Shown in pieces: positions 12,314 to 32,871 of a DNA stretch of 55,092 nt. This DNA comes from a virus (lineage: Duplodnaviria > Caudoviricetes), in IMG/VR virus record IMGVR_UViG_3300037882_003063, positions 1-55,092 of that record; one strand, given 5' to 3'. The translations under genes were made by a program, and so were the position numbers. Position 1 is the first letter of the stretch, and the number at the start of each line of letters is the position of its first letter. The notes under the pieces were generated by a model, which had not been told where the DNA came from, made no database searches, and saw only the letters and a program-made list of their open reading frames with translations.

Positions 12314-12602
12314 GTGCTACCTCCTTGGTAGTGAGTGCATAGTATCGTGCATTTTGGAGTTGTACTAGGGACATTTATCCCATACCTAATTTGACCTGCT
12401 TCTATGGGTTCAAAGGGTCAAGGGTAGTGCCTTTATACGCACCGTGAGCGCTTTTAAGCCTGCTTTGGGTCGTTCTGTGGCTCGAGTTACCAGAGCGCTA
12501 TATATAAGGGATTCTAGGCGATTCTAGGAGTCGGGACATTTATCACTGGTATACCTTTCTTGTGTATCGTTATGATGCACTCACTACCAAAGGAGGTAGC
12601 AC
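12314..12602. promoter_or_regulatory. Bidirectional promoter cassette A
   Basis: Inverted arms 12314-12340 and 12575-12602; leftward TAGTAC-17-TACTAT, rightward TATGAT; GGGACATTTATC boxes at 12368 and 12533. Confidence 0.85.
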
Positions 12603-12605
12603 CCC

Positions 12606-12932
12606 ATGAAACGACACGAATTTATTATCATCAACGACATTGAATGCCGCCCTGACCGTCAAGTGCAAGCGCAGTTTGCAGGAACGGACACAAAACACCT
12701 AACATCTATTGCGCTCATGAACTGCACGGATGCAGATACGCCCCAAGCAGCGATTGATGGTCTTAAAGAAGCCATGACCAAACCATTTGAATTCGCAAAC
12801 TACCAATTCGCAGAAAAGGTCATCCGCCCCCTACTCACTGACGAAACCCTAGGCTCGAGTATCCGCCACGTTTACACAATCGGGTTTTATAGCGTTTATG
12901 CAGCAGCAGCAGCAAAGAAGGTGAGCAAATGA
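12606..12932 (+). CDS. Hypothetical protein
   Basis: AGGAGG RBS supplied by the cassette arm. Confidence 0.75.
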   Translation: MKRHEFIIINDIECRPDRQVQAQFAGTDTKHLTSIALMNCTDADTPQAAIDGLKEAMTKPFEFANYQFAEKVIRPLLTDETLGSSIRHVYTIGFYSVYAAAAAKKVSK

Positions 12933-13258
12933 AGCCCGATGATATGTTTGAACTCCTAGGCGGTAAGAATTCGCTTGTGGCTATGGTAGACGCTCATATG
13001 TTTACCTGTTCCAAAAAAGACGGTTCTGTTAGTTTCCACTTCAAGGGACATAGTAAGTGTAACATTTGCACACTCACACCCGCGCCCGATGCTACTTTCA
13101 CGCTCACGCTTCACAAGTTTGTCAAGTCCACTGGTGAAATTGGTGTTTTTACAAAAACCGAGGGTGTCAAGCCCTCCCGCCTTATGTACTGCTTTGAGAT
13201 GCAAACAGGCTTAAGACTTCAAGTGCATTTTTCCTATGAGGCTTTGGTGTGGAAATGA
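12929..13258 (+). CDS. Hypothetical protein (resembles a small LGG...FE..TGL mobile-element family)
   Basis: ATGA coupling; family resemblance is from memory only. Confidence 0.7.
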   Translation: MKPDDMFELLGGKNSLVAMVDAHMFTCSKKDGSVSFHFKGHSKCNICTLTPAPDATFTLTLHKFVKSTGEIGVFTKTEGVKPSRLMYCFEMQTGLRLQVHFSYEALVWK

Positions 13259-13485
13259 TAACTTTAGAATTTTCGGTTGGATCAAGAACCGCCCTCGAGA
13301 AGTACATTCAAAAGAAGCTGCGTATCCAAGCCCAAGGCGCTATCAAGGATGTTACCGAATGGGAGGACATCCGCTCTGATGGGATTGAAGCTCTTGGGTA
13401 CATTCTGCGTGAAAATCCAGTCTTGGGTTATCACGACCAAGCCCAAGCCCAAGCCATTAGCGACAAGCAAAAGGGTCGTGTATGA
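13255..13485 (+). CDS. Hypothetical protein
   Basis: ATGA coupling at both ends. Confidence 0.6.
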   Translation: MITLEFSVGSRTALEKYIQKKLRIQAQGAIKDVTEWEDIRSDGIEALGYILRENPVLGYHDQAQAQAISDKQKGRV

Positions 13486-13655
13486 CAAAAGAATTTTATG
13501 AAGTCATAGAAATGTTTGAAAAGCATTTCACGGGTCGAAGGCTTGACAAGGAGGATAAAGCCCGTTGGAAAGAGGGAATTGTTTACCAGCATGGCGAACT
13601 GAACGAACTTTTTAAGGCGTTCCGTTTAGGCTATTACTTTGGCAAATCGGTTTAA
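13482..13655 (+). CDS. 57-aa hypothetical protein (not in track)
   Basis: MTKEFYEVIEMFEKHF...FKAFRLGYYFGKSV; ATGA-coupled. Confidence 0.7.
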   Translation: MTKEFYEVIEMFEKHFTGRRLDKEDKARWKEGIVYQHGELNELFKAFRLGYYFGKSV

Positions 13656-13661
13656 GGTCTT

Positions 13662-13689
13662 GCCCGTCCTCGAGCGGGTCATCTCGAGG
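13662..13689 (+). other. Intergenic pseudoknot-like element, copy 3 (covariant stem)
   Basis: GCCCG-t-CCTCGAG-CGGGT-cat-CTCGAGG then AAGGAG RBS. Confidence 0.6.
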
Positions 13690-13699
13690 AAGGAGTTTT

Positions 13700-14041
13700 A
13701 TGTTTATCGAGTGCATGGACGGGATTTTTTGGAATGTTACTCAAGCCCAGTCAATTTCATATTACCCTACTAATGAATTTATAAAAGTACCAGCAGAACA
13801 GGAGCGCGACAAAGATGCCCCTGACGGCTACAAAGCACCCGAGGGATGGGAGTACGAACCTGACGAGCATATGTTTTATCGCCCATTTGAGTACACCATT
13901 AAACTCACTTTTCCAGATGACAGCGTAGTTAGGTTGAGAAAATACAAAACCGAAGCCGAAGCCCGTTCTTTTTGCCGTGACCTTGCGGCACTGCTATCTA
14001 GCAAGCCGCCCTTAATCCTTAACTCGCAGAAACGCTTTTAA
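13700..14041 (+). CDS. Hypothetical protein
   Basis: AAGGAG RBS; followed by a terminator. Confidence 0.75.
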   Translation: MFIECMDGIFWNVTQAQSISYYPTNEFIKVPAEQERDKDAPDGYKAPEGWEYEPDEHMFYRPFEYTIKLTFPDDSVVRLRKYKTEAEARSFCRDLAALLSSKPPLILNSQKRF

Positions 14042-14065
14042 GGCTATTCAAACCACAAGGTAAGG

Positions 14066-14099
14066 AAAGACCCTAGGGAATCACTCCTAGGGTCTTTTT
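14066..14099. terminator. Terminator between convergent genes
   Basis: AAAGACCCTAGG / CCTAGGGTCTTT stem plus T run. Confidence 0.8.
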
Positions 14100-14114
14100 G
14101 ATGCCTTCTAGCGC

Positions 14115-14618
14115 TCAGGCGGGTATCCTTGACTGCTCGAGTTTGTCCATTTCTGCTTGGTGCAATTCTTTAAGCTGACCCATTGAAAGCTCAGCGTCAA
14201 AGGGTACACCCATATCAGTGAGGGCATTGATATACCACTGCTTGCTCGAGCGGCTTACTTTCGCTTTGTCTTGCACTTGCTTTTCTTCTTCTTGGGCTTC
14301 ATTCAAATCCTCCCATAGCGCTATGAGTTGCTTAAGAGTGTAATCGCTTGGGTCGTCTTTTTCGTCGAAGACACCGCCTTCTTGAAGGGCTTTGACATAA
14401 TCTTCAAACGTAACAGGTGAGCTAGAATTCACAACTTCGGATTCTTGCTTTTGTTTGAAGTCACTAGGCTTAGACGGGGTTTGCCCCATAGTTTCGTCGG
14501 CTTCCTCCTGCGATTCGTAAGGCACAAAGCCTTCACCCGCTAACCAACGACCAGAAGCCCCGAATTGGTCTAAAAAGTTTCCTTGGGGAGTACCGCTCAC
14601 TTGATAACCTGCTTTCAT
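14115..14618 (-). CDS. Acidic head-associated protein with HeH/LEM-like C-terminal motif
   Basis: GAGGTG RBS; directly after the major capsid gene; C-terminal LTDMGVPFDAELSMGQLKEL. Confidence 0.55.
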   Translation of the reverse strand: MKAGYQVSGTPQGNFLDQFGASGRWLAGEGFVPYESQEEADETMGQTPSKPSDFKQKQESEVVNSSSPVTFEDYVKALQEGGVFDEKDDPSDYTLKQLIALWEDLNEAQEEEKQVQDKAKVSRSSKQWYINALTDMGVPFDAELSMGQLKELHQAEMDKLEQSRIPA

Positions 14619-14643
14619 ATTGTTCACCTCGAGCCATACAATA

Positions 14644-14674
14644 GCAAAACCCCGTGCAGTTTGCACGGGGTTGC
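14644..14674 (-). terminator. Terminator after the major capsid gene
   Basis: AACCCCGTGCA / TGCACGGGGTT stem; adjacent to a 15-bp palindrome copy. Confidence 0.7.
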
Positions 14675-14689
14675 TGTTTCGTCACGAAA

Positions 14690-15823
14690 TTAAGGTGTTT
14701 GGTATGGGATGTTAAACACAAAAACGTTTTCTGGGTTAAGGATGACTGGCAAGGTTGTAGCCCAACCAGAAAGCTCGACCCGTGGCGGTTTGGTTTGAAA
14801 GGATTCTGCAAGCGTAACGATTTTACTTGTGCTTGCACCAGCAGGGCGACCAATGGCGGTATACCCAAGGGTGTCGTCTGGAGTGACAAAATCTTCGCCA
14901 TCGCCCAAGTCAATTCGTTCACTTCGCCCTGTCTCGCAAACAATCACGAAAGCAGTGTCACGCATAAAGCGTTTAGTGCCAACGTCTTGACGGTAGGTGA
15001 GGTTGTACTCGATGATTGGGGGCAAGCCTTCCTGAGTCATGATGTTATTCAATCGGGCGGCGCTTAGGTTCGCTTGGCTTTGAACCAACGTACCAGCGTT
15101 CACAAGAGAAATGTTGTTGACTCGAGCCTGAACCTTTGGGTGCTTTCGCAAAATTGACGTAATGCGGTTACTCGTGAAGATTCGACTTGGAATTAAGCCC
15201 TTGTCTCGCAAGAAGTCAACCGCATCAAAAATGTCTTGCAATGGGTCGAGGGTCGGGTCAAACCAACCATCAGGGACAGCAACACTACCCGATGGAATGG
15301 TGACACGATGCCCTGACGGATTCGAGTAAACAACAGTATCAAGAATACCCATGTCGGTTGTACGGGTGACTTGGGCATCACATATAGCTTCCCAACGCAT
15401 ACGCTCCATTTTTTCACGGAGGGCAAGGTTTACGGTGACATTAAAGAATGAGGCTAAGTTCACTCGAGCCAAATCTGGTAAATCTTGGTCAAGAGTCTCG
15501 AGCAAGGCATCATAATTTTCTGCTGACATTTCAGAGCCAACATCAATATGCCCAAGCTCGACCAACATTGAACCCGTGCGAATGCCTTCTTTTAACTGCA
15601 CAGGGCTGTAACGAGTACCATCATTTGCAATGATGGTGAGGTATTGCACACCATTTTCACGGTAGATGTTACCCTGCTTTGCCGTGGTGGGTTTTTCTGG
15701 CAGGATGGTAGCCCCAAGGTATTGACGGTTTGCATCACCGAATTGAACCCTTGGGCTGTTGGCAAGGTCAACGAAAGTACCATCATTCACTAACTCATCA
15801 ACTAACTGAGCGATATTCAGCAT
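14690..15823 (-). CDS. Major capsid protein (lambda E-like)
   Basis: 377 aa after scaffold and decoration genes; ERMRWEAI, DPLQDI and LPVILNPENV motifs. Confidence 0.88.
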   Translation of the reverse strand: MLNIAQLVDELVNDGTFVDLANSPRVQFGDANRQYLGATILPEKPTTAKQGNIYRENGVQYLTIIANDGTRYSPVQLKEGIRTGSMLVELGHIDVGSEMSAENYDALLETLDQDLPDLARVNLASFFNVTVNLALREKMERMRWEAICDAQVTRTTDMGILDTVVYSNPSGHRVTIPSGSVAVPDGWFDPTLDPLQDIFDAVDFLRDKGLIPSRIFTSNRITSILRKHPKVQARVNNISLVNAGTLVQSQANLSAARLNNIMTQEGLPPIIEYNLTYRQDVGTKRFMRDTAFVIVCETGRSERIDLGDGEDFVTPDDTLGYTAIGRPAGASTSKIVTLAESFQTKPPRVELSGWATTLPVILNPENVFVFNIPYQTP

Positions 15824-16242
15824 TACGCTACACCTCCCTGAGCGCCCGTCTGCAAGATGTATTTACTGCTTAATGCGGTACGGGCTGCACCAGTATAAGC
15901 AATTGGTAAGTAGGCTTCACGAATGGTGGTGTTAGGGCGAACAAAAGTAGCTTCATTGTTTTTGTTCACAATGTCGAGAACGTCAAATGCAAGCAAGTAT
16001 GTTTCTGCCATGCCTGCCGCATTGCCAGTGGTCACAGGAACAAACTTGGCTCGAGCGGTACGGTCTGCATCAGTACGCCCCCAAAGTGTTCCAGCCTGAG
16101 CGTTCTTACGCCCGTTCGTACCAGCAACCAATGTGGTTGCATCCAAGGCAGCACCAGCAGGAATCAATCTTTCGGTTGAAAGATAATCCGCCGCCCATCT
16201 TGGTTGTGACCGTGCGCCTGTTTCGTCAATTACTTTAGCCAT
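15823..16242 (-). CDS. Head decoration protein
   Basis: 139 aa, Ala/Thr-rich, immediately upstream of the capsid gene; AGTLWGR motif. Confidence 0.7.
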   Translation of the reverse strand: MAKVIDETGARSQPRWAADYLSTERLIPAGAALDATTLVAGTNGRKNAQAGTLWGRTDADRTARAKFVPVTTGNAAGMAETYLLAFDVLDIVNKNNEATFVRPNTTIREAYLPIAYTGAARTALSSKYILQTGAQGGVA

Positions 16243-16255
16243 GATTCAACCCTCC

Positions 16256-17041: not shown

Positions 17042-17101
17042 GATAGCCCCTTATGCTTTGGCTTGCCGTGCAAACCAGAGTTTCCGCCGTGCGGTGTCAT
17101 G

Positions 17102-17130
17102 ATTATGCACGGTTGGGCTTAATTGTGCAA
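17102..17130 (-). promoter_or_regulatory. Promoter of the head operon
   Basis: TTGCAC-17-CATAAT; shares CCGTGCATAAT with the promoter near 35970. Confidence 0.55.
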
Positions 17131-17133
17131 GCT

Positions 17134-18744: not shown

Positions 18745-18774
18745 ATGATGATTGTACTTGTTTCGTGACGAAAT

Positions 18775-18828
18775 AAAAATACCCGTCAATTAAGACGGGC
18801 TGTTGAAGTGAGCTACACCTCGAAACGA
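18775..18828 (-). ncRNA. Candidate ~55-nt small RNA
   Basis: TTGTGT-17-TACAAT with extended TG (18861-18833); GAGGTG/CACTTC hairpin; terminator GCCCGTC/GACGGGT + ATTTTT; no ORF. Confidence 0.4.
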
Positions 18829-18852
18829 GTGCATTGTAACAAGTAGACGCTT

Positions 18853-19003
18853 AAAACACAACACCCGCCTCTCGAGAGGCGGTGTTTGTCCGACTGAGCC
18901 GCATCGGGCGAGGGTCGTCTGCGTCTAGCTACTCCTCGAGCTTAACCCGTGGCGCTAAGTTGGGGCGCGGCATTCCACTAAGCCGTCCGCCTCTGCCGTA
19001 CAG
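18853..19003 (-). ncRNA. Candidate ~150-nt structured RNA
   Basis: TTGACA-17-TATTTT (19037-19009); GC-rich with several stems; ends in the palindrome CCGCCTCTCGAGAGGCGG plus a U-rich tail. Confidence 0.5.
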
Positions 19004-19115
19004 GGTGCAAAATACCATGCTCCGAAAGATGTGTCAAGTATGTTTTCCCTAGCCTCTTGATTATTCTAGTCATGGCTTTGAACCTAGTCGTTAAACAGGG
19101 CGGGCATCGAAGTGG

Positions 19116-23482: not shown

Positions 23483-23517
23483 AAAAAACACAACCCAAGG
23501 GCTTAACTTGGGTTGTG
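23483..23517 (-). terminator. Terminator closing island B left operon
   Basis: CACAACCCAAG / CTTGGGTTGTG stem plus T6. Confidence 0.8.
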
Positions 23518-23539
23518 CCTGTGTGACCTGTGAGCCTCT

Positions 23540-23830
23540 TTAATCCATTGGTATGATGCCTTGAGCCTTGGCATACTCAAAATTCTCTGAGACCTGTTTA
23601 GGGACTTCTGACGGCTCAAGAATGAACTTTTGATACTCACCTTGATACAGTGGGTTAGGTCGGGCTTCATCAAGGTAGTAGTTGCTCAGGTGTAAAAACT
23701 TGTAGTAATAATGGTCGTTAATGTACTCACTGGGCGTTACCTTTGTCACGCTAACGATGACACCGTACCTCACTGGGCGCGTTGGTCGTTGCGCTTTGAT
23801 TAGCTGACCGATTCTAAAGAGTTGTGTCAT
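23540..23830 (-). CDS. Hypothetical protein (SH3/KOW-like start)
   Basis: FRIGQLIK...YGVIV motif; GGAC RBS. Confidence 0.6.
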   Translation of the reverse strand: MTQLFRIGQLIKAQRPTRPVRYGVIVSVTKVTPSEYINDHYYYKFLHLSNYYLDEARPNPLYQGEYQKFILEPSEVPKQVSENFEYAKAQGIIPMD

Positions 23831-24227
23831 TGTGTCCTGCCATGAGGTGTACTAGGGCATCAACTCTATGTTGAGCTTGTTCTTTGTCTCGAGCGGCTTG
23901 CTTCTCGAGTGTTCGTTTTTTTTCTGCAAGCCGCTCTTGTGGTGTTGATACGAAGGGCTTTCTTGGTTTGAAGTATTCGAGTTGTTTTCTGTTTTCAATT
24001 CGGTATCGCATCCAAGCGTCATTAAAATCGTAGCGGATATAAATATAATCATCGCCACGTTTCCAGTAAGCGATTAGGTTTTCACTGTCTTCTTTAAGAT
24101 AATCGGGCTGCTTGCATTTTTGCCATTGCTTATCGAATCCGAGATGTTTTGATAAGCCAACAATTGCAATAATGGCTAGGCTCGAGTCCCAATAAACCCG
24201 CCTTGGGCTTTTAGTCTGCATATTCAT
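23814..24227 (-). CDS. Hypothetical protein
   Basis: Part of an overlapping gene chain. Confidence 0.6.
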   Translation of the reverse strand: MNMQTKSPRRVYWDSSLAIIAIVGLSKHLGFDKQWQKCKQPDYLKEDSENLIAYWKRGDDYIYIRYDFNDAWMRYRIENRKQLEYFKPRKPFVSTPQERLAEKKRTLEKQAARDKEQAQHRVDALVHLMAGHNDTTL

Positions 24228-24477
24228 CCTTTTCGTGTGTGCTTGCATTGAGTGTCGCAACGTAAAGGGCTTTCTTGACGTGAATCACCAAGCCTAATTT
24301 TACAAGTTGTTTTAGGCTTTGAATGACCAAAGCCTTATTCTTGATGTAATCGTGACGAGGGCGAACGTGTTGCACCAAAAGAGCGTTTCTGGTGACTCGA
24401 CCCATTGCAACAACGGTTTCGTAGACTCGAGCCTGAACGACTTCTAAAGAATCTTCGGGTTTATGTTTGGGCTTCAT
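24211..24477 (-). CDS. Putative winged-helix protein
   Basis: SLKQLVKLGLVIHVKKALY pattern; AGGAG RBS. Confidence 0.5.
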   Translation of the reverse strand: MKPKHKPEDSLEVVQARVYETVVAMGRVTRNALLVQHVRPRHDYIKNKALVIQSLKQLVKLGLVIHVKKALYVATLNASTHEKDEYAD

Positions 24478-24715
24478 TAACTATCGCTCCTATCTTAATT
24501 TGGATTAGCCTAGGCTGTGCCAAAAATTCAACGTGTGTCTTTGTCGGGGCGGCTGGTGGGAGTTGAATGTAGTCTTTGCATACAACCGCATGAGGATTCT
24601 CAAATCTGACCTGATGATGTAGGCAAACGTTAGAGACTTTGTGTGGATTCGAGAACTGCTTAAAGAAAAGGCAGTTAGCGCATTTAGCAACGGGCATAAG
24701 GTCAAGTTGTTGCAT
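24461..24715 (-). CDS. Small Cys-rich (Zn-binding) protein
   Basis: CANC...C...C; GGGAGG RBS before ATG at 24715. Confidence 0.6.
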   Translation of the reverse strand: MQQLDLMPVAKCANCLFFKQFSNPHKVSNVCLHHQVRFENPHAVVCKDYIQLPPAAPTKTHVEFLAQPRLIQIKIGAIVNEAQT

Positions 24716-25016
24716 TTTTCGCCTCCCGTTTCGTGACGAAACTTTCTTTGACTTTCGCGTTAAACCTAACGCCGCCGTTATCGGCTTCGCATGTGATGAT
24801 AACCGCATAATCAAGAAACGAAAACGTGACGGTTGCACAAGAGGGCTGAATCAGGTTTATACCTTGCTTGTTTGCTCCATCTCGAAGCTGTGAAGCGGCT
24901 TTCAGGGTTAGGTGAAGGGCATCAGAAACCTCAACTTGTGGTAAGCCTTGGTCTCTGAGCGCGGTTAAGGCAAGCTCTAAACTCGAGCCTTTAAGTGCAA
25001 AAATAATGTTATTCAT
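24702..25016 (-). CDS. Hypothetical protein
   Basis: GAGGA RBS. Confidence 0.65.
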   Translation of the reverse strand: MNNIIFALKGSSLELALTALRDQGLPQVEVSDALHLTLKAASQLRDGANKQGINLIQPSCATVTFSFLDYAVIITCEADNGGVRFNAKVKESFVTKREAKNATT

Positions 25017-25310
25017 TTAATCCTCGAAGTAGTGATCGGCAATCTCGACCCAGTAAACCTCACCTACGCACCAATCTTCGGGCGCGAAGTGTTCAAAGCG
25101 CTCCTTCATTAGTTCGGGTGTCAAGTTGTCGCCATTGTCAATTTTTGCGCGTATCCACTCACTGGACTGTGAGCGCTGCATTAAGTTTAGGCTAACACTC
25201 CAAGTGGCTGAATTGACAAACCCGTTACAGGGTTTGTCATTGCTTTCGGCTTTATAGGCTTCAACTTGGGCGTATAAGAGTTCCTTATACGCCAACTGTT
25301 TAGCGGTCAT
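25017..25310 (-). CDS. Hypothetical protein
   Basis: TAATG-coupled start at 25310. Confidence 0.65.
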   Translation of the reverse strand: MTAKQLAYKELLYAQVEAYKAESNDKPCNGFVNSATWSVSLNLMQRSQSSEWIRAKIDNGDNLTPELMKERFEHFAPEDWCVGEVYWVEIADHYFED

Positions 25311-25477
25311 TAGTACCACACTCCCGCCGCGTACTGCATCGGGGCTGTTGTCATTTTGGTCAGATACTCCGTGTTCGCTTTGATGGTTTCGACCAGTTTA
25401 GAAACTGGTGTTTGAAACCACTTGAAACGGTCATCTGGACTTGGGTCGGGGCTAATGTCGCTTATATCTGTTTTCAT
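25310..25477 (-). CDS. 55-aa hypothetical protein, first gene of cassette B left operon (not in track)
   Basis: AAGGAGG RBS; MKTDISDISPDPSPDDRFKWF...AGVWY*. Confidence 0.7.
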   Translation of the reverse strand: MKTDISDISPDPSPDDRFKWFQTPVSKLVETIKANTEYLTKMTTAPMQYAAGVWY

Positions 25478-25480: not shown

Positions 25481-25758
25481 GTGCTACCTCCTTGGTAGTG
25501 AGTGCAAGGTATCATGCAAAATACAAATAGACTAGGGACGTTTGTCTAGTAGTGACTTTTTGGCTTTTGGTCGTCTCATAACCCTGTCTTGTGAGTGCTG
25601 TGAGCGCTTATAAGGCTGTCCTAGGCTGTCTCATGGCTCGAGTTACCAGACAGCTATATATAAGGCATTGTGAGCCATTCTAGGAGTCGGGACATTTATC
25701 ACTGTTTTAGGCGTTGGGTGTATCGTTACAATGCACTCACTACCAAAGGAGGTAGCAC
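25481..25758. promoter_or_regulatory. Bidirectional promoter cassette B
   Basis: Inverted arms 25481-25506 and 25731-25758; leftward TAGTCT-17-TACCTT, rightward TACAAT; boxes at 25535 and 25689. Confidence 0.85.
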
Positions 25759-25759: not shown

Positions 25760-25969
25760 ATGAACGAACACACTTGCCCTACGTGCGATGGTACTGGAAT
25801 TGTTGAAGAGGTTCGCTCTTACTTTGACCAACACCAACAGCAATGGTATCTCGATTTCAAAGAAAAGCCATGCCTTGGCTGCTCACACGAAGAGCCTTAT
25901 GAGCCTGACGCTTGGGACTTTGACCGTGACTTCCCAACCTATCCCGACAGCGAAGACTTGCCCTTCTAA
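25760..25969 (+). CDS. Small acidic Zn-finger protein
   Basis: CPTCDGTG...CLGC; cassette RBS. Confidence 0.7.
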   Translation: MNEHTCPTCDGTGIVEEVRSYFDQHQQQWYLDFKEKPCLGCSHEEPYEPDAWDFDRDFPTYPDSEDLPF

Positions 25970-25978
25970 GAGGTTCTT

Positions 25979-26369
25979 ATGCTGATACCTGACAAACTCA
26001 CAGGCACGTCAATCCCTCGAGCAATAACCCATGTGGACGGCAAAGCCCTGACTATCAAGCAACAAAAAAAACGTTTATGTGAATATCGCCCACTCGAGAG
26101 GTATAGTTTTTGGTACGTTCCTCTATGACACTGACCTAAAATGTGGTTATGGGATTTACATGGTCATCATGGGAATCCTCAAGTTAAGCCCCAAACTGGT
26201 TTGGGATGTAGCGCTCGAATTGGATGCTAACGCCCATTGGACAGCAACCAAAGGCATACCAGATTATGAGGCGGTGCAGTTACGCCTTAAGAGTGGCAAC
26301 TGTGAGTATGTCATCAAACAAATTTTTGTCCATCAGTCTATCGCCCCTAGTCTTGTAAGGAGTTCTTAA
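25979..26369 (+). pseudogene. Gene split by a frameshift at an A8 run (26064-26071)
   Basis: ATG at 25979 has an RBS and stops after 49 aa; removing one A joins it in frame to 26079..26369, which has no RBS. Confidence 0.5.
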
Positions 26370-26370
26370 C

Positions 26371-26559
26371 ATGAAAGCTGAAAAAATCGCCCTCGACTAC
26401 ATAAACGGCAACCTCTCTGATATTCGGTTAGCCCTTAAGGAACTAACTCCGATTGAGGCAGTCAAAACCATGTTTGCCGCCCGTACCTTCCTTGAGCAGC
26501 ACGGCGGCAAACACGACTGCTCGATTTTTGAAAAGTGGGTCTCGAGGATGAGCGAATGA
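26371..26559 (+). CDS. Hypothetical protein
   Basis: AAGGAG RBS. Confidence 0.7.
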   Translation: MKAEKIALDYINGNLSDIRLALKELTPIEAVKTMFAARTFLEQHGGKHDCSIFEKWVSRMSE

Positions 26560-26744
26560 AGAAGCCCCTTGAAGTATTTGATTATCGAGGTTTTGAAGTT
26601 TCCAAGCGTTCGGCTGATAGCTACAGCGCCCAAAACAAAGCAGTTTGTAATTATGTTCTGCTTGCATCCACTAAAGAATCCATTCAAGCAATGATTGATG
26701 ACGAGCTTGCCCTCAAAGGAATTGGTTTATATGAAAATTACTGA
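26556..26744 (+). CDS. Hypothetical protein
   Basis: ATGA coupling. Confidence 0.6.
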   Translation: MKKPLEVFDYRGFEVSKRSADSYSAQNKAVCNYVLLASTKESIQAMIDDELALKGIGLYENY

Positions 26745-27252
26745 AAAATTCGTTCGTGAAGAACTGGCTCACGCCCTGACTCCTAATACTTCGCTCGAGT
26801 TGTACCCATCAGGCGGTTTGTGGTACGTCTGCGATAACGCCCAAAGGCGTTTAACTCTTGTGTCGGGTTCTCTTCGTGACTGCTATCATTTTCTTTGTGG
26901 TTACGCCACGGGTATGCCCAAAGTTAAAAGAGAAGAAGATGAGCAAAGGAATCTTTTACTTCTTTTAATGCCACGGGTTTTGGTTAGGTCGGAGCATGGT
27001 GAAAGCATGAAACTCTTAAATGCTGCAACTGCCGCCCTCTGGTTCGGTTCGGATAGCACCGATGTATTTTTGCAGCCTCTTAAAAATATGGGTGAGTATA
27101 TAAAAATAAAAGGCTTGATTCAATACGAAATTGAGTTAGGTGCATACCCCGCCTACCCTCACCATGATTTTATTCGTTGCGGCAAAGACACAACGAAAGA
27201 GCAACGCTTAGCCCGACTCGAGTACATTCTAAGTAAATACGCCGTTTCGTGA
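26731..27252 (+). CDS. Hypothetical protein
   Basis: AAGGA RBS; the stop codon lies inside a 15-bp palindrome copy. Confidence 0.7.
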   Translation: MKITEKFVREELAHALTPNTSLELYPSGGLWYVCDNAQRRLTLVSGSLRDCYHFLCGYATGMPKVKREEDEQRNLLLLLMPRVLVRSEHGESMKLLNAATAALWFGSDSTDVFLQPLKNMGEYIKIKGLIQYEIELGAYPAYPHHDFIRCGKDTTKEQRLARLEYILSKYAVS

Positions 27253-27264
27253 CGAAACAAAAAC

Positions 27265-27296
27265 AAAACCCGTGCAAATAAATGCACGGGTTTTTT
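27265..27296. terminator. Bidirectional terminator
   Basis: AAAACCCGTGCA / TGCACGGGTTTT between convergent genes. Confidence 0.85.
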
Positions 27297-27341
27297 GACG
27301 GCTGCACGTCTAGGGCATCTTAGTCTTTGGTCGTGAGAATT

Positions 27342-27965
27342 CTATAACGTCTGCCTTGGTGGTACTGGGTTAAGTGTGAGCTTTGCACCCGTCACAGGGT
27401 CAGTTAAATCGCCCGTAACGCCTAGTCTTAGGATGTTTGCTGTGATTAAAACATCGTTAAGGCAATAACTTGTCAGTTCGGCGTGTTTGCCGTGCTGATA
27501 CATCATGGGGGCGTAGTGACCGCCGTTCCCTGTCTTCTCGAATCCGTTAGCTCGAGCGATTGAATCAACGTTGTAACCAGAGACGGTCTTGCCCTTCGTG
27601 AAGTTTGGCGGCTGACCGCTTGCAATTCTGACCTCTTGCAAGAGGTCGTAATCAGTCCAGACGTTTACGCCATGAAAACCCAAGACCTTATCATCAAAGC
27701 CCTTTGAGTTGAAGCCAACGATAGAGGCAGTCCCAAAGTCCTTTGGAATTTCAGACAAACGCTTTTCGTCATAAACTTCAAACTGAACGGGCGTGTAATG
27801 CTGGTCGAGCCAACAAGCAACAAGAATACTAAAACCCATTCCAGCGTAATCGCCCCAACTTGTGGCATATGACAAACCCGCTATCATCTCGCTAGGGTCA
27901 CGGGGCATAATCGGTCTTTTAATCTCGAGGTCGTAGACGACTATCGGCGCATTGAACTTATTCAT
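27342..27965 (-). CDS. DEDD-family 3'-5' exonuclease (RNase H-like)
   Basis: YDLEIK, VGFNSKGFD, YCLNDV motifs. Confidence 0.85.
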   Translation of the reverse strand: MNKFNAPIVVYDLEIKRPIMPRDPSEMIAGLSYATSWGDYAGMGFSILVACWLDQHYTPVQFEVYDEKRLSEIPKDFGTASIVGFNSKGFDDKVLGFHGVNVWTDYDLLQEVRIASGQPPNFTKGKTVSGYNVDSIARANGFEKTGNGGHYAPMMYQHGKHAELTSYCLNDVLITANILRLGVTGDLTDPVTGAKLTLNPVPPRQTL

Positions 27966-28228
27966 TTTTTAGCCTTACCTTGTCGCTTTCTGAGAGGCTT
28001 TATAACAGGCTTCGGAAGCAATTCTGGTGTTACTACCTTCAAAACGGGTTCAAGAGGCTTTACGACCCGTCTTGAGACCCATGCTGACAGCTTTTGGTCG
28101 AATGGTTTAACCCTGTATTCGTTCCCTCGAGTTTCCATGACCTGTGAGGGTATCTCACGGTAAACACTCCCGCCCTCGAGTTTCGGGATGTGTACGCACC
28201 AAAGAACGCTAATCATTTTCAGGCTCAC
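27962..28228 (-). CDS. Hypothetical protein
   Basis: Part of an overlapping chain; start uncertain. Confidence 0.5.
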   Translation of the reverse strand: MSLKMISVLWCVHIPKLEGGSVYREIPSQVMETRGNEYRVKPFDQKLSAWVSRRVVKPLEPVLKVVTPELLPKPVIKPLRKRQGKAKK

Positions 28229-28634
28229 TTAAGGCTAAGTGATTAAGGTTAATGTCACTCACGGGCGCAACAAGACGAACACCACTCGAGACCTTAACGG
28301 CAAAGTCAGCGCTAACTTTTTCCTCCATCAAGCTCAGGGCGGCTTTCGACTCACGCATAAACTCCTCGAGCGTTACGTGTTCACCGCCTGAATTTCTGAA
28401 TGGGGCTAAGCCTAAAACGTTATTTAGGATTTCTGCCACAGCCAAGGTCTCACGGTAATATGCGTTAAAGCTCTTATTGCCGTTTAGGACTTGGCTACGG
28501 CTTGCCAGTTGCTCCATTCGGAGCTTTTGGTCTGCAAAATGCTCTAAGAGTGCTTGGGCTACTCTCTTAACTTCTAGCGCTTCTTCGACTTCATTCATTG
28601 CTGTTTCAATCTCATTCGCCGTTACTGTCTTCAT
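28209..28634 (-). CDS. Hypothetical helical protein
   Basis: Overlaps the ParB-N gene stop. Confidence 0.6.
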   Translation of the reverse strand: MKTVTANEIETAMNEVEEALEVKRVAQALLEHFADQKLRMEQLASRSQVLNGNKSFNAYYRETLAVAEILNNVLGLAPFRNSGGEHVTLEEFMRESKAALSLMEEKVSADFAVKVSSGVRLVAPVSDINLNHLALSEPEND

Positions 28635-29436
28635 CGTTATCACCGTCCTCTAGCTCGAGCTTTGGGGCATCCGCTATTGTCGAGTCACCAAACTCTTTGC
28701 CGTCTTGAAAATTTTTGTGCATCAATGCAATCAGGTCAGGGGCGGCAAAAGCGCGGCTTGAATCTGGCAACCCTAAAGTTTCCATAAAGCTATCCTTGGC
28801 GGTCTTATCGGCGAAGGTCAGAATCAAGTAATGGTCTCGTGACTCCCCCGCTTGGTCAACTTCTAGGTATTCCTTTTTGCGGTCTTTAATTGCTTGAATC
28901 TGAGCGGCTGCTTTTGCTTCGTCAGCCTGTAGCCCTTGCGAGTCGGGTTCATCAGGGATACCAAACCCGTAAGTCTCAGCCCAGTCATCAATTTTGTCAG
29001 GAAACTCTAATTCAAGCTCGAGACGGTCAAAGCCAACTTCAAGAGGATTGACCCCATCATCAAAGATGTCAGCCAGTAACTCCAATTCGTATTGTCCTTG
29101 AAGGGCTGGATTATTGAGGATGATATTGATTTCCTTCTCTTCTTTTTCGGTCTTCTCAACCATTGACACGTCAAGAAGGTAATCAGGTGACTTCTCGAGC
29201 ATATCAAGAATCAAGACCCGTTGGTGACCACCCACAATGTTGCCCGTAGTCTTGTTCCATGTGACCGTGCCAACAAGACCGTGCTTTTCTATTGCCTCTC
29301 GCAACCTCTTACGGGCTGTCTCGTGAATCATTCGAGGGTTGTAAATCGCGTTCTTTAACTCGGAGCGGTGAACCCTAACGTTCTCGAATTTTTGGTAACG
29401 AGTTAGTTGCCCCTCCTTACTCTTAGCCTTAGCCAT
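28612..29436 (-). CDS. ParB/Srx N-terminal domain protein (IbrB-like)
   Basis: LKNAIYNPR, IEKHGLVGTVTWN, IVGGHQR; acidic C-terminus; no obvious HTH. Confidence 0.85.
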   Translation of the reverse strand: MAKAKSKEGQLTRYQKFENVRVHRSELKNAIYNPRMIHETARKRLREAIEKHGLVGTVTWNKTTGNIVGGHQRVLILDMLEKSPDYLLDVSMVEKTEKEEKEINIILNNPALQGQYELELLADIFDDGVNPLEVGFDRLELELEFPDKIDDWAETYGFGIPDEPDSQGLQADEAKAAAQIQAIKDRKKEYLEVDQAGESRDHYLILTFADKTAKDSFMETLGLPDSSRAFAAPDLIALMHKNFQDGKEFGDSTIADAPKLELEDGDNDEDSNGE

Positions 29437-30109
29437 TTTTTAACTCCATTTCATATTTTACTATTGCCGCTTCTGCGTAGGGATATTGCGCCAAAATTTT
29501 TATATAGTCATCTGGAAACCGTTTCCTTATTTCATATAACCAAGCTCCTTTTAATTGACCGCCCCATGATTCATAGTTCATTGTGTAATCAGGCGGCATG
29601 ATGATTCGAGCGTGTTGTAAGGTTGCCATAACGTCCCGATTGTTCCACTGTGCAAGCGGATAGAACCGACCACGCTTAGGGTCAATGCCCTCGCACTTAT
29701 TGACCATCCCTCGACGGTCAAGAGAATCAATCATCTTTTCGCCGCCCGTTGTCCAGTAAACGCCATAATGTTTTTTGACCACTGTCTCGAGGTCGCTAAA
29801 CCCGACACGGCTAATCAATGGGTTATTGGTCATGGGGCGGTACTCACCGTCAATCATTGAATCAAACCCGTCAGGATGGCGAAGCTGCAAAATGGGAGTA
29901 TCGAATTTTTTGCTCAGGTAATTAAGATACCTTTCGACGAATCCAATGCCCTCGACGGTGTAATAGTGATACCCGCAAACCTCAAAGCCAAACCGTTTGA
30001 GGATAACCAAGGCGGCTACGCTGTCCTTACCGCATGATATACCAAGGGCAACGCGCTTCACGCCTGTTGCTTTGAATCTTTTAATAACGTCAAGTTTCTG
30101 CTTATCCAT
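29429..30109 (-). CDS. PAPS-reductase-like PP-loop protein (IbrA/DndC-like fold)
   Basis: PP-loop ISCGKDS; GEKMIDSLDRR; FYPLAQW. Confidence 0.85.
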   Translation of the reverse strand: MDKQKLDVIKRFKATGVKRVALGISCGKDSVAALVILKRFGFEVCGYHYYTVEGIGFVERYLNYLSKKFDTPILQLRHPDGFDSMIDGEYRPMTNNPLISRVGFSDLETVVKKHYGVYWTTGGEKMIDSLDRRGMVNKCEGIDPKRGRFYPLAQWNNRDVMATLQHARIIMPPDYTMNYESWGGQLKGAWLYEIRKRFPDDYIKILAQYPYAEAAIVKYEMELKNG

Positions 30110-30177
30110 AGAAACCTGTTTCGTGACGAAACAAAAAAACACCAAAGCATAAAGCTCTGGTGTCTACTTGAAAAAAA

Positions 30178-30492
30178 CTAGCGTCTACGGGCTGAGCCGT
30201 CACGGTTGACACGACGACCAGTTTTGGCATTGGTGTACCCGCCGCCGTCACGTTTCGTAATGCCCCGACCAAGTTTGACACTGGCTTTCTTGACGGCTGC
30301 TGCACCTTTACCTTTGCCCTTGGCGGCTGCTTTGGCTTTAGGTGCTGGTAAAGCCTTGGGCTTAGCGGCTCTTGGTAAAGCCTTCGGCGCTGCCTTTTTA
30401 GCCCTGGCTGGTGCTTTCTTAGCTGCTGGTTTCTTAGCTGCTGGTTTCTTAGCTGCTGGTTTCTTAGCTGCTGGTTTCTTTTTGGCTGCCAT
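30178..30492 (-). CDS. Histone H1-like Lys/Ala/Pro-rich basic protein
   Basis: KKPAA x4 encoded by identical 15-bp repeats (~30415-30480); almost no acidic residues. Confidence 0.85.
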   Translation of the reverse strand: MAAKKKPAAKKPAAKKPAAKKPAAKKAPARAKKAAPKALPRAAKPKALPAPKAKAAAKGKGKGAAAVKKASVKLGRGITKRDGGGYTNAKTGRRVNRDGSARRR

Positions 30493-30553
30493 AATAAAAC
30501 CCCCTTTGCGGTCTCAAAGGATGTTATCACGCCAAAATGGAGTGTTTGAGGGT

Positions 30554-30769
30554 TCACCATTCCACCTCTAAGGCATCATGGATAATCTTGCCCCGTTCGG
30601 TTGTACTGAGTGCCATATAAGCGGCGAAAGCCTCATCACTAAGGCGAACCTGTACCAGTCGTGACGTGTTCTTTTGACGGTCAGGGTCATTGCCCCAACG
30701 AGCAAAAGCGGCTTGTCGTTTCATCTCGCTCAGTTCTGCACCTGATAATTTAATCTCACTTTTTGACAT
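30554..30769 (-). CDS. Putative ribbon-helix-helix DNA-binding protein
   Basis: LVQVRLSDEAF...GKIIHDAL; GAGGGG RBS. Confidence 0.55.
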   Translation of the reverse strand: MSKSEIKLSGAELSEMKRQAAFARWGNDPDRQKNTSRLVQVRLSDEAFAAYMALSTTERGKIIHDALEVEW

Positions 30770-31196
30770 CTGACCCCTCAATTAAACTCAAGTAAATAAA
30801 ATAATTGTGGCTAACATCATCAAGGGCGGCGCTTAGAATCATTTCCTCAAATTGGGAGGATAAAAATTCTTCTTCTGATTCCTCTTCGTAAGACCCACAA
30901 TCGAGCAGGGCATCAGAGATAAGCTCGAGCCAGTCATCCTCTTCTTGGGTCATCTCACGACTAGGGGCTTTGCTAAAGACTCCTTCTTCATGCAAAGCTA
31001 AAAGGCGCTTAATGTCAACCGTCACGACCTTTTCAACCCTAGCCTTGATTGTGATGGGCGCAGTCCTAGCACCGAATTGCAAGGTGGCAATATCGCCTTG
31101 CAAAACCTTTGAAAATATAGGCTTGTCGCGCTGTGTAGCGCGTTTTAAGCCGCTTCGGTACTCGCCTAGGTGTTTCATCCTATGGGTGATATTCAT
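30756..31196 (-). CDS. ASCH/PUA-like domain protein
   Basis: SGLKRATQR...GDIA resembles the GxKxxTxR motif. Confidence 0.55.
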   Translation of the reverse strand: MNITHRMKHLGEYRSGLKRATQRDKPIFSKVLQGDIATLQFGARTAPITIKARVEKVVTVDIKRLLALHEEGVFSKAPSREMTQEEDDWLELISDALLDCGSYEEESEEEFLSSQFEEMILSAALDDVSHNYFIYLSLIEGSDVKK

Positions 31197-31849
31197 GACT
31201 GTATAGTATCATGCAAGGGTGCGTTTGTGAAGTCCCCGAGTTTAACGAGTCCATAAGACTTCATGATTGTTCGTATAATCTCTTGAGTGTTGTATTCGTT
31301 ATCGTTGAATAAGCCTTTTTTAATCATCGCGTAAACTTCGTCTATTTGCTGCTGTTCGGGCGTGGGTACGCTTCGAGTCCCGACAGCAACAAAAACGGTT
31401 TGTAAGACTGCTTTGGTCTGACCCACAAGTGACCTATCATCAGGCATCACTGAACACATAAGCTCGATAGGGGCGAACTGTAAATAATTTATTTCTCTGT
31501 TTGAAACATGGTGAACCTCTTCACCGACTATTTTTATTTCGGGCGTGTAAAAGTATGCTTTGACGCGGGGCGTGTTCCAGTTCTTGACTATACGAAACTG
31601 ATGTTCGTGTAGCTCTGGTTTGAAATGGGCAACGAGTTTTGCGTCTGCGTGAATCTCGAGGAAGTGATGCCTACTTGAGCCATCAAACACAGGGCTGTCA
31701 TAGTGCATCTTGACGAGTGTCTGACCGTCAAAAAAATGTATCGTATCCACACTCCGCATAAGGAAACTTGGCTTGTCGGGACTTTGGGTGTGTTGGTAAT
31801 CGGAATCGGCAGAGTGGTTGGGCGCGACTTTTCTTATTACTGTTTGCAT
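31193..31849 (-). CDS. Hypothetical protein
   Basis: AAGGAG RBS preceded by a GGCTCGAG/CTCGAGCC hairpin. Confidence 0.7.
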   Translation of the reverse strand: MQTVIRKVAPNHSADSDYQHTQSPDKPSFLMRSVDTIHFFDGQTLVKMHYDSPVFDGSSRHHFLEIHADAKLVAHFKPELHEHQFRIVKNWNTPRVKAYFYTPEIKIVGEEVHHVSNREINYLQFAPIELMCSVMPDDRSLVGQTKAVLQTVFVAVGTRSVPTPEQQQIDEVYAMIKKGLFNDNEYNTQEIIRTIMKSYGLVKLGDFTNAPLHDTIQS

Positions 31850-31899
31850 AAAACTCCTTAAAAGGCTCGAGCGGTTAAGCTCGAGCCGTGTGAGTGGGC

Positions 31900-32580
31900 T
31901 TAGACTTCTTGTGCTTGGTACTTACTCGAGATGTGAGACCATGACTGAGCTTTGCCTTTTCCAGCAGGAACACCCGCGTAATACCATTTTTGTTTGTTGG
32001 GCGACCAACGCAGTTTAAGCAGACCTAGCGCTTCTTTGTGTTTTTTGGTTTCGCCACTGACCCAAAGCCAAGCATTGGCGCGTTCGACCACAAGACCGTC
32101 GAGGAGCTTAAGGGCGGCAACGATTTGTTGGATTTTGGCTTCTACTTCGTCAGTGATTTTTGTTGTGCTTTGACCCGCTTGGGCGGATGCTTTGCGCTTC
32201 TCGTGAGCTTCATCAGTCTGAGCTTCGGCTTGGGCGCGGCGCTGCTTGGCTTCTTCGGCGCGTTTTGCGGCTTCTTTAACCTGTTCGTCAAACCATGCGG
32301 AGTGTGACCGACTTTGGTCACGGGCGTTAGAGCTTTTAGCGTATTTTGAGTTGCTAAAAGTCATATATCGCGTTCTTGGGTAGTTGCCTTTGGCGATAGC
32401 CTCTTTGACAGCCTTATGAACCGCGTTAATGGCTTGCATAATTTTTTTGTTACCGTTGGGGCGGTCAGGATGCCAACGTTTTGCAAGTTCCCTAAATCTG
32501 GTGGCGCAGTCTTCGCCGTTTCTAATGCTCGAGAAGTATGTCCATGCGGTTTCGAGGGCTTGCTGTTCGGTGTGTGTCAT
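31900..32580 (-). CDS. J-domain (DnaJ-like) protein
   Basis: RFRELAKRWHPDR; C-terminal WLWVSGET..HKE.L....RWS..KQKWY domain; cassette RBS at 32580. Confidence 0.85.
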   Translation of the reverse strand: MTHTEQQALETAWTYFSSIRNGEDCATRFRELAKRWHPDRPNGNKKIMQAINAVHKAVKEAIAKGNYPRTRYMTFSNSKYAKSSNARDQSRSHSAWFDEQVKEAAKRAEEAKQRRAQAEAQTDEAHEKRKASAQAGQSTTKITDEVEAKIQQIVAALKLLDGLVVERANAWLWVSGETKKHKEALGLLKLRWSPNKQKWYYAGVPAGKGKAQSWSHISSKYQAQEV

Positions 32581-32582
32581 AT

Positions 32583-32871
32583 GTGCTACCTCCTTGGTAG
32601 TGAGTGCATTGTATAATGCAGAATTAAGGGAGTCTAGGGACATTTATCTCATACCTAATTTGACCTGTTTCTATGGGTTTAAGCCGACTTTTAACCCTGT
32701 CTTGTGAGTGCTGTGAGCGCTTATAAGGCTGTCCTAGGCTGTCTCATGGCTCGAGTTACCAGACAGCTATATATAAGACATTGTGAGCCATTCTAGGAGT
32801 CGGGACATTTATCACTGTTTTAGGCGTTGGGTGTATCGTTACAATGCACTCAATACCAAAGGAGGTAGCAC
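32583..32871. promoter_or_regulatory. Bidirectional promoter cassette C
   Basis: Inverted arms 32583-32609 and 32844-32871; leftward TAGACT-17-TACAAT, rightward TACAAT; boxes at 32637 and 32802. Confidence 0.85.

What the first reader, a model, noticed from the sequence alone, without database searches (positions are those of the whole stretch)
12314..32871. Three homologous bidirectional expression cassettes drive the accessory islands
Seen: ~280-290 bp elements at 12314-12602, 25481-25758 and 32583-32871. Each is bounded by inverted 27-28 bp arms (TGCACTCACTACCAA(A)GGAGGTAGCAC) that supply a near-identical leader and RBS to six outward-facing genes. Each arm has a -10 box directly upstream and a conserved box next to the -35 position. 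All plus-strand genes in the genome lie downstream of these cassettes. Island A splits the head-neck morphogenesis operon and is sealed by terminators at 9982 and 14066. Inference: a reusable, co-regulated early-gene platform for host-takeover or anti-defence cargo that may also serve as a homology anchor for swapping cargo.
Basis: partly seen in the sequence, partly recalled or inferred. Interest (0 to 1): 0.88.

Follow-up and report, generated by a model that had tools for sequence, protein, structure and literature searches.

The report
Three repeated two-way promoter cassettes
An orphan 55-kb tailed phage carries three copies of a ~285-bp intergenic cassette, each pointing outwards in both directions with the same short leader and ribosome-binding site, so six gene blocks are probably switched on together.

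Summary
Three homologous non-coding elements lie at 12314-12602, 25481-25758 and 32583-32871. Each ends in inverted 26/27-nt arms that stop 1-3 nt before six outward-facing start codons. No further copy exists in the genome. No copy was found in the phage, viral, metagenome or genome collections searched.

Each arm abuts a -10-like TAYNAT hexamer. A GGGACATTTATC box lies 23 or 26 nt further upstream. The -35 hexamers are poor.

The six blocks hold about 38 ORFs (27% of the genome), and every plus-strand gene is among them. Five of the six blocks end at strong intrinsic terminators.

The best reading is three paralogous divergent promoter-leader regions that co-regulate six operons. Cassette 3 is a chimera, cassette-1-like on the left and cassette-2-like on the right, so the copies recombine.

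"Early" timing and "anti-defence" cargo are not shown. The cargo is mostly ORFans plus some DNA-metabolism genes, and it has the same unusual sequence signature as the rest of the genome. That argues against recent import. No relatives were close enough to test cargo shuffling.

The closest analogue is the PeSL of T4-type phages, so this is a new variant of a known kind.

A stronger oddity was seen in passing. CTCGAG occurs 172 times against about 12 expected, while 40 of 64 palindromic hexamers are absent.

The parts
12314..12602 (.). Cassette 1 (289 bp), a non-coding divergent promoter-leader region
25481..25758 (.). Cassette 2 (278 bp); it has an 11-bp deletion relative to cassettes 1 and 3
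32583..32871 (.). Cassette 3 (289 bp), a chimera: left part like cassette 1, right part like cassette 2
   Evidence: (D1, D15)
12314..12339 (-). Left arm of cassette 1 (26 nt): predicted 5' leader with AAGGAGGT, 2 nt before the ATG at 12311
12576..12602 (+). Right arm of cassette 1 (27 nt), 3 nt before the ATG at 12606; -10-like TATGAT at 12571-12576
25481..25506 (-). Left arm of cassette 2, 3 nt before the ATG at 25477; -10-like TACCTT
25732..25758 (+). Right arm of cassette 2, 1 nt before the ATG at 25760; -10-like TACAAT at 25727-25732
32583..32608 (-). Left arm of cassette 3, 2 nt before the ATG at 32580; TAGACT-17-TACAAT is the only cassette promoter picked up by the generic scan
32845..32871 (+). 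Right arm of cassette 3 (one C to A change), 3 nt before the ATG at 32875; -10-like TACAAT at 32840-32845
12368..12379 (+). Box GGGACATTTATC, left copy of cassette 1. Homologous copies lie at 25535-25546 (2 mismatches) and 32637-32648
12533..12544 (+). Box GGGACATTTATC, right copy of cassette 1. Homologous copies lie at 25689-25700 and 32802-32813. Box-to-box spacing is 165, 154 and 165 bp
10158..12311 (-). Unit 1L, 5 ORFs, all without family matches
12606..14041 (+). Unit 1R, 5 ORFs; one matches phrog_9437 (unknown function)
23540..25477 (-). Unit 2L, 7 small ORFs, no family matches
25760..27252 (+). Unit 2R, about 6 small ORFs; the first is a 69-aa protein with CxxC motifs
27342..32580 (-). 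Unit 3L, 10 ORFs: a weak J-domain protein first, then ParB-like, PAPS-reductase-like and weak exonuclease matches
32875..35237 (+). Unit 3R, 5 ORFs; the last is HNH/EndoVII-like; no terminator found at its end
9985..10017 (-). Intrinsic terminator ending unit 1L
   Evidence: -20.2 kcal/mol, z -5.2
14064..14104 (+). Intrinsic terminator ending unit 1R. It lies between convergent genes, and its use on the other strand was not folded
   Evidence: -29.6 kcal/mol, z -5.7
23486..23520 (-). Intrinsic terminator ending unit 2L, just before the terminase genes
   Evidence: z -4.1
27265..27294 (.). Two-way terminator shared by the convergent units 2R and 3L
   Evidence: z -4.0 on both strands

Best explanation
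The three elements are paralogous copies of one divergent promoter-leader region. Each copy holds two outward-facing promoters. Each promoter has a -10-like TAYNAT hexamer with a poor -35 and a shared GGGACATTTATC box centred roughly 41-45 bp upstream of the predicted start.

Transcription is predicted to start about 7 nt after the -10, inside the arm. All six operons would then get an almost identical 5' leader of about 22-26 nt, carrying a perfect AAGGAGGT Shine-Dalgarno 7-9 nt before the ATG. The six operons (about 38 ORFs, 14.6 kb) would therefore be transcribed and translated as one regulon by the bacterial host's RNA polymerase. A factor bound to the box probably helps or controls this. 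Terminators insulate the operons from the virion genes.

What is shown: the repeat, its exact geometry, the gene orientation that requires promoters, the terminators and the chimeric copy. What is inferred: the start sites, the timing (early or middle), the factor that binds the box and the co-regulation.
For: - Exactly three copies, each bounded by arms that end 1-3 nt before six start codons.
- The arms are far better conserved than their surroundings. Cassette 1 against cassette 2 is 27/27 in the right arm and 27/30 over the left arm with its flanks, but 148/237 (62%) in between. This points to constraint on the arms and not only to a recent duplication.
- A -10-like hexamer abuts every arm.
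- Gene orientation: + strand coding occurs only downstream of the cassettes, and each cassette sits between divergent genes, so promoters must be inside.
- Strong intrinsic terminators close 5 of the 6 units.
- No paralogy among the cargo proteins, so only the control region is what repeats.
- The host is bacterial: a LysM domain above its cut-off, DnaB and Erf matches, and hairpin-plus-U terminators.
- Box-to-box spacing is 165, 154 and 165 bp. The only length difference between copies is 11 bp, about one helical turn.
- Cassette 3 matches cassette 1 at 24/25 per window on its left and cassette 2 at 151/152 on its right.
Against: - There are no transcription data. No sequencing run could be listed, so the start sites are predictions.
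- The -35 hexamers are weak: at best 4/6, in one of the six promoters. The generic scan found only 1 of the 6 promoters.
- Better sigma-70-like sites lie elsewhere in the genome, so these need not be the earliest promoters.
- The box count at 2 mismatches or fewer is not significant by itself.
- The box points the same way on both sides, so it is in opposite orientation relative to the two promoters, and its distance to the -10 differs by 3 bp.
- The leader hairpin is weak, about -6 kcal/mol, and no better than shuffles.
- The helical-phase argument rests on a single indel.
Confidence: 0.7

Rival explanations
1. The arms are kept identical mainly for an RNA-level purpose. A phage or host protein, either a translational repressor or a site-specific RNase, would recognise the shared leader and shut off or stabilise all six mRNAs together. 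The promoters themselves would be ordinary. This can coexist with the best explanation.
For: The 26-27 nt of identity extends well beyond what a Shine-Dalgarno and a -10 need, while the adjacent promoter spacers have diverged to about 60%. The leader can form a 5-bp stem (CUACC/GGUAG) that takes in part of the Shine-Dalgarno and would lie close to the predicted 5' end. Start-associated sequences with unexplained conservation are known in Cluster K mycobacteriophages (PMC3203893, passages read).
Against: The hairpin is no more stable than shuffles (z -0.8 to +0.45). One arm carries a stem-breaking C to A change. No RNA-binding protein or RNase was recognised in any ORF scanned.
Confidence: 0.15
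2. The cassettes are mobile or invertible DNA. Either they are MITE-like elements with terminal inverted repeats, or they are invertons whose 230-bp core is flipped by a recombinase to swap promoters.
For: 26/27-nt inverted repeats bound a short non-coding element present in several copies. The core is asymmetric: the boxes are direct repeats and the left and right promoter regions are unrelated.
Against: There are no target-site duplications; the flanks are simply CAT and ATG start codons. The repeats themselves carry the Shine-Dalgarno and end 1-3 nt from six start codons, which insertion would not produce three times. No transposase, invertase or integrase family matched any of the ORFs scanned. 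Four small ORFs of unit 2R and a few others were not scanned. No copy was found outside this genome.
Confidence: 0.05
3. The repeat has no special design. One intergenic region was duplicated twice, and the copies are kept alike by gene conversion (the phage encodes an Erf-type annealing protein). The promoters are not necessarily co-regulated.
For: Cassettes 2 and 3 are 98.9% identical over 180 nt. Cassette 3 is a clean chimera. An Erf-like recombinase is encoded at 40875-41894.
Against: Conversion tracts would have to be about 27 nt long and repeated at six ends in both orientations, while the neighbouring spacers sit at about 60% identity. The box and several central blocks are also conserved in the diverged cassette 1.
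Confidence: 0.1

Closest known systems
PeSLs (promoter-early stem-loops) of T4-type phages. PMC2839356: abstract and section 13 read. PMC4122927: abstract read.
   Same: Both are repeated, conserved regulatory cassettes that end in a Shine-Dalgarno and a start codon. Both sit mostly in front of ORFans, are insulated from the virion genes and act as sites of homologous recombination. Here, cassette 3 is a chimera.
   Different: PeSLs are short and one-directional. They carry consensus -35 and -10 boxes and a terminator stem-loop inside the motif, and there are about 50 per genome. These cassettes are about 285 bp and two-directional, with weak -35 hexamers, no internal terminator and only 3 copies. 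The phage is not T4-like.
Morons of lambdoid phages (recalled; no paper read)
   Same: The block 9985-14104 is a self-contained transcription unit set, with its own promoter region and flanking terminators, sitting between capsid genes and tail-side genes.
   Different: It is a double, divergent unit of 10 ORFs. It shares its control region with two other loci. The other two cassettes drive DNA-metabolism genes and are not inserts in a late operon. No prophage state is evident.
Start-associated sequences (SAS/ESAS) of Cluster K mycobacteriophages. PMC3203893: passages read.
   Same: A conserved sequence that includes the ribosome-binding site lies a few bases before the start codons of a subset of genes. 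Its conservation is greater than translation alone explains.
   Different: According to the passages read, SAS sites lie in front of many individual genes, nearly all in one orientation. Here only the first gene of each of six operons has the sequence, and it is fused to a promoter. No sequence similarity between the two was tested.
Conserved multi-copy promoters of phages with their own RNA polymerase, T7 type (recalled)
   Same: Near-identical stretches of more than 20 nt are repeated in front of several transcription units.
   Different: None of the 12 ORFs of 377 aa or more matched an RNA polymerase family. The arms carry a bacterial -10-like hexamer and a Shine-Dalgarno.

Membership tests
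PeSL (T4-type promoter-early stem-loop) | Sigma-70 consensus -35 and -10 boxes | tested here: not met
   The -10-like TAYNAT is present in 6 of 6 promoters. The -35 is at best 4/6, in 1 of 6.
PeSL (T4-type promoter-early stem-loop) | Terminator/attenuator stem-loop inside the motif | tested here: not met
   The central hairpin has no U-tract. The alignment fold gives a covariation term of +0.46. The terminators lie at the far ends of the units instead.
PeSL (T4-type promoter-early stem-loop) | Shine-Dalgarno and start codon at the 3' end; located upstream of ORFans | tested here: met
PeSL (T4-type promoter-early stem-loop) | Recombination between copies | tested here: met
   Chimeric cassette 3. 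Exchange of cargo between genomes could not be tested.
Moron | Own promoter and terminator; inserted between genes of a late operon | tested here: inconclusive
   The terminators are confirmed. The flanking genes are assigned to the capsid and adaptor side only by position and weak leads. The composition is the same as the core.
MITE-like element | Terminal inverted repeats plus target-site duplication | tested here: not met
   Inverted repeats are present. No duplication is seen in the flanks.
Inverton (invertible promoter) | Inverted repeats flanking a promoter, a cognate invertase, and both orientations present in a population | tested here: inconclusive
   The repeats are present. No recombinase family matched any scanned ORF. 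Orientation in reads could not be tested (one search listed no runs).
Start-associated sequence (Cluster K) | Short conserved sequence with the ribosome-binding site, a few bp upstream of start codons of many genes | tested here: inconclusive
   The position relative to the start is similar (1-3 nt). Only six sites exist, all at operon heads, and no homology was tested.
Rfam RNA families | A match at the gathering score | tested here: not met
   0 matches in the window. No cassette hit at E of 1 or less.

The most novel reading that the evidence does not exclude
The cassette is a helically phased, two-box regulatory switch. One phage protein would bind both GGGACATTTATC boxes and loop the roughly 160 bp between them, turning both outward promoters of all three cassettes on or off together. 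In this reading the same cassettes are also the phage's recombination handles, as PeSLs are. That would produce chimeric copies, and it would produce 7.1-kb deletions or minicircles between the direct repeats of cassettes 2 and 3, which are 98.9% identical.
Probability: 0.2. Interest if true: 0.6.

Novelty: new variant of a known kind. Interest (0 to 1): 0.45.

Why it matters
If the six operons really form one regulon, then 27% of an orphan phage genome is controlled from one reusable 285-bp part, and that part could be read out with a single reporter construct. The part would also be a compact natural bidirectional promoter with a fixed leader.

The chimeric copy shows that such control regions recombine. 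This is the mechanism proposed for gene shuffling in T4-type phages, seen here in an unrelated phage.

For annotation, the cassettes mark the operon heads in a genome where almost no gene has a name.

Tried and rejected
Search for relatives:
- blastn of cassettes 1 and 2 against 50,697 phage records found no match.
- The arm pattern gave 0 matches in viral contigs, metagenome contigs and genome contigs.
- Terminase-based locus searches gave 15 loci, 15 loci and 0 loci. Where matches were long they were about 27-30% identical.
- tblastn of the terminase gave best hits of 30-33% to archaeal viruses of methanogens. I did not accept an archaeal host because of the LysM domain and the intrinsic terminators.
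- Capsid homologues: 343 proteins at E of 0.001 or less, the best non-self at 50% identity.
- A capsid-profile search gave 74 IMG/VR loci at 45% identity or less.
- nhmmer with the cassette profile on all 107 loci then held (1.39 Mb) hit only the window's own three copies.
- Repeats were examined in 4 of the 74 capsid loci, and none had a comparable cassette.
- tblastn of the capsid and the J-domain protein against phages gave only weak hits.

Expression: no RNA holder was listed and no run of any kind was listed.

Structured RNA: no Rfam match. Core folds gave z -1.5 and -0.2. There was no covariation support.

Fourth copy: the 140-nt non-coding stretch at 10018-10157 looked cassette-like by eye, but nhmmer gives E 6.2, so I rejected it.

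Own RNA polymerase: I recalled that an 8-nt stretch of the arm resembles the core of T7-type promoters. No call tested this. I rejected the idea because no polymerase-like ORF was found.

Tail-side and head-side genes: PHROGs gave no hits for 10 ORFs and PDB sequence searches gave nothing useful. The Atlas result for 14115-14666 stayed below 0.9, so it is a lead only.

Literature: two full-text searches for CTCGAG together with palindrome terms found 0 papers. Elhai 2015 (PMC4390886, passages read) lists other iterated palindromes and has 0 occurrences of CTCGAG in its main text.

Full report
What the window is. The window is a complete viral record of 55,092 bp whose first and last 99 bp are identical (family D7). 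The unique genome is therefore 54,993 bp. GC content is even at 45-51% and there are no tRNA genes.

Family searches name the following proteins. Large terminase is at 21122-22825, portal at 17134-18789, major capsid at 14690-15823, tape measure at 1922-4525 and baseplate wedge at 50481-51698. DnaB helicase is at 37872-39203. An Erf-like annealing protein is at 40875-41894 and a small HTH regulator at 41806-42123. A LysM domain scores above its cut-off in 1296-1922.

The phage therefore has a bacterial host. It has no close relative. The best capsid homologue among 343 hits is 50% identical, and the few named hits come from Deinococcus, Leptolyngbyaceae, Nostoc and Chloroflexota records.

The observation.
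- Cassettes 2 and 3 are 98.9% identical over 180 nt. Cassette 1 is about 85% identical to them over its right 125 nt.
- A profile of the three copies finds exactly three full-length hits in the genome. It finds none in 1.39 Mb of fetched loci apart from the window's own copies.
- Each element ends in the same arm, 27 nt on the right and 26 nt on the left (one A fewer). The arms stop 1-3 nt before the start codons at 12311, 12606, 25477, 25760, 32580 and 32875.
- The ungapped arm pattern is expected 0.00 times by chance.

Anatomy.
- Read outwards, every arm is preceded by a -10-like hexamer whose last T is the first base of the arm. These are TATGAT, TACAAT and TACAAT on the right, and TACTAT, TACCTT and TACAAT on the left.
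- The -35 hexamers are weak. The generic scan reports only the left promoter of cassette 3, TAGACT-17-TACAAT.
- The 12-mer GGGACATTTATC occurs twice per cassette, always on the + strand. Five copies are exact and one has two changes. It lies 26 nt before the right -10 and 23 nt before the left -10.
- With a start 7 nt after the -10 (an assumption from general bacterial promoter geometry), the boxes are centred near -44.5 and -41.5.
- The two boxes are 165, 154 and 165 bp apart. The single 11-bp length difference between copies keeps their helical phase.
- The centre holds further invariant blocks, but nothing supports a structured RNA.
- The arm can form a 5-bp hairpin that includes part of the AAGGAGGT Shine-Dalgarno. 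This hairpin is no better than in shuffled sequence.

Why promoters must be there. A codon-usage model trained on ten named genes supports + strand coding only at 12606-14041, 25760-27252 and 32875-35237. All 12 other + ORFs tested are shadows of minus-strand genes. Each cassette lies between divergent genes, so at least the three + strand units need a promoter inside the cassette.

The left units of cassettes 1 and 2 are shielded from upstream minus-strand transcription by the hairpins at 14064-14104 and 27265-27294. The second was folded on both strands, the first on the + strand only. Units 1L, 1R, 2L, 2R and 3L end at hairpin-plus-U terminators with z-scores of -4.0 to -5.7. No terminator was found at the end of 3R. 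The six units hold about 38 ORFs over 14,623 nt, which is 27% of the genome.

Cargo.
- The cargo proteins are not paralogous.
- In Pfam, 4 of 34 scanned cargo ORFs gave any hit at E of 0.01 or less, and none reached a curated cut-off. Four small ORFs of unit 2R were not scanned.
- PHROGs adds a ParB-like protein (E 5.5e-49), a PAPS-reductase-like protein (2.3e-12) and an HNH/EndoVII-like protein (1.3e-5). It also adds two families of unknown function.
- The first gene of unit 3L has a weak J-domain match, and I read an HPD motif in its translation.
- This profile fits early or middle phage genes in a general way. It does not show host takeover or anti-defence.
- The cargo shares the genome's odd signature. 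CTCGAG density is 2.87 per kb in the units against 3.22 in the rest, and other palindromic hexamers are at 4.31 against 4.86 per kb. GC content and codon scores are also alike. So the cargo is long resident, or it came from phages with the same signature.

Recombination. In 25-column windows, cassette 3 matches cassette 1 at 24/25 across its left variable region. It matches cassette 2 at 151/152 across columns 136-287. The other pairings fall to 6-19/25 in those regions. This is direct evidence that the copies exchange sequence.

The arms of cassettes 1 and 2 are 27/27 identical on the right and 27/30 over the left arm with its flanks, while the 237 columns between them are 62% identical. I take this as selection on the arms.

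Comparison with known systems.
- PeSLs of T4-type phages are the nearest analogue. They are conserved promoter cassettes that end in a Shine-Dalgarno and a start codon, lie upstream of ORFans and mediate recombination (PMC2839356, abstract and section 13; PMC4122927, abstract). The present cassettes fail two defining features, the consensus -35 and the internal terminator stem-loop. They are also bidirectional, five times longer and few in number.
- Start-associated sequences of Cluster K mycobacteriophages share the unexplained conservation next to start codons (PMC3203893, passages).
- MITE and inverton readings fail for several reasons. There are no target duplications and no recombinase was recognised. 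The arms are also fused to six start codons.

Verdict. The feature is real and cleanly organised, and it is most likely a three-copy bidirectional promoter-leader module (confidence 0.7). Its timing, its regulator and its role in cargo exchange remain open. It is a new variant of a known kind and of moderate interest.

Seen in passing. The genome-wide sequence signature deserves its own study. CTCGAG occurs 172 times against about 12 expected. It falls in all three codon phases (72, 40 and 42) and 18 copies lie outside or across gene borders. Meanwhile 40 of 64 palindromic hexamers are absent. GATC occurs twice (213 expected), and CCGG, GGCC and GGNCC never occur. A 15-bp palindrome, GTTTCGTSACGAAAC, occurs 19 times against 0.02 expected.

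Noticed in passing
whole window (172 sites, e.g. 12481, 25637, 32750 inside the cassettes): CTCGAG is about 14-fold over-represented: 172 observed against 12 by base composition and 8.4 in dinucleotide shuffles (0 of 100 shuffles reach it). That is about 3.1 sites per kb. Sites fall in all three codon phases (72, 40, 42) and 18 lie outside or across gene borders, so the selection acts on the DNA. None of 74 distantly related loci shows it. It behaves like the highly iterated palindromes of cyanobacteria, but this hexamer was not found in two literature searches or in the main text of Elhai 2015.
   Followed up: partly
whole window: Extreme palindrome avoidance. 40 of 64 palindromic hexamers are absent (each expected 10-18 times). 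Observed against expected counts: GATC 2 / 213, CCGG 0 / 174, GGCC 0 / 174, GGNCC 0 / 174, CCNGG 3 / 174, GDGCHC 0 / 101, GRCGYC 0 / 43, CTGAAG 0 / 24. This suggests a host with very many restriction systems. Both GATC sites (13280, 25034) lie in cassette-driven units.
   Followed up: partly
19 sites, e.g. 11097-11111, 24728-24742, 27244-27258, 30118-30132, 33475-33489, 37856-37870, 43793-43807: The 15-bp palindrome GTTTCGTSACGAAAC occurs 19 times at 1 mismatch or fewer (13 exact) against 0.02 expected. Fifteen copies have G at the centre on the + strand. Several lie directly before a ribosome-binding site and start codon, several lie beside terminators, one abuts a consensus -35 (37853), and some are inside genes. 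Five of the six cassette-driven units hold or touch one. In IMG/VR only single-site contigs were found (85 stretches). It may be an operator or an RNA hairpin; this is unresolved.
   Followed up: partly
11088-11137 and 33449-33498 (also 11983-12014): A 50-nt module is repeated in inverted orientation at 98% identity, inside units 1L and 3R. It consists of a CCTGTG...CACAGG hairpin, then the 15-bp palindrome, then AAAAAGGAG and a start codon. The layout resembles a small terminator-plus-start cassette.
   Followed up: no
1-99 and 54994-55092: An identical 99-bp direct terminal repeat. The record is a complete genome or a circular assembly, and one gene (54298-54993 joined to 1-1299) runs across the junction.
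   Followed up: no
9957-9990: The first gene after unit 1L (start at 9956) has no Shine-Dalgarno. A TACAAT lies only 5 nt before its ATG, just after the terminator. It may be a leaderless transcript.
   Followed up: no
3189-3375; 30407-30481; 39694-39767: In-frame tandem repeats: 69-nt units x3 in the tape-measure gene, and 15-nt units in two other genes. At 30102-30560 another frame of the same strand scores better in the codon model, so the gene call there is uncertain.
   Followed up: no
21122-22825: The nearest isolates to the large terminase by tblastn are archaeal viruses of methanogens (Methanoculleus viruses, psiM2, psiM100) at 29-33% identity, although the phage shows bacterial features.
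   Followed up: partly
28612-30145: Adjacent ParB-like (phrog_9353/620, and the N-terminal part of a DNA methyltransferase family, phrog_498) and PAPS-reductase-like genes in unit 3L. This may be a DNA-modification pair, which would be worth testing against the CTCGAG signature.
   Followed up: no
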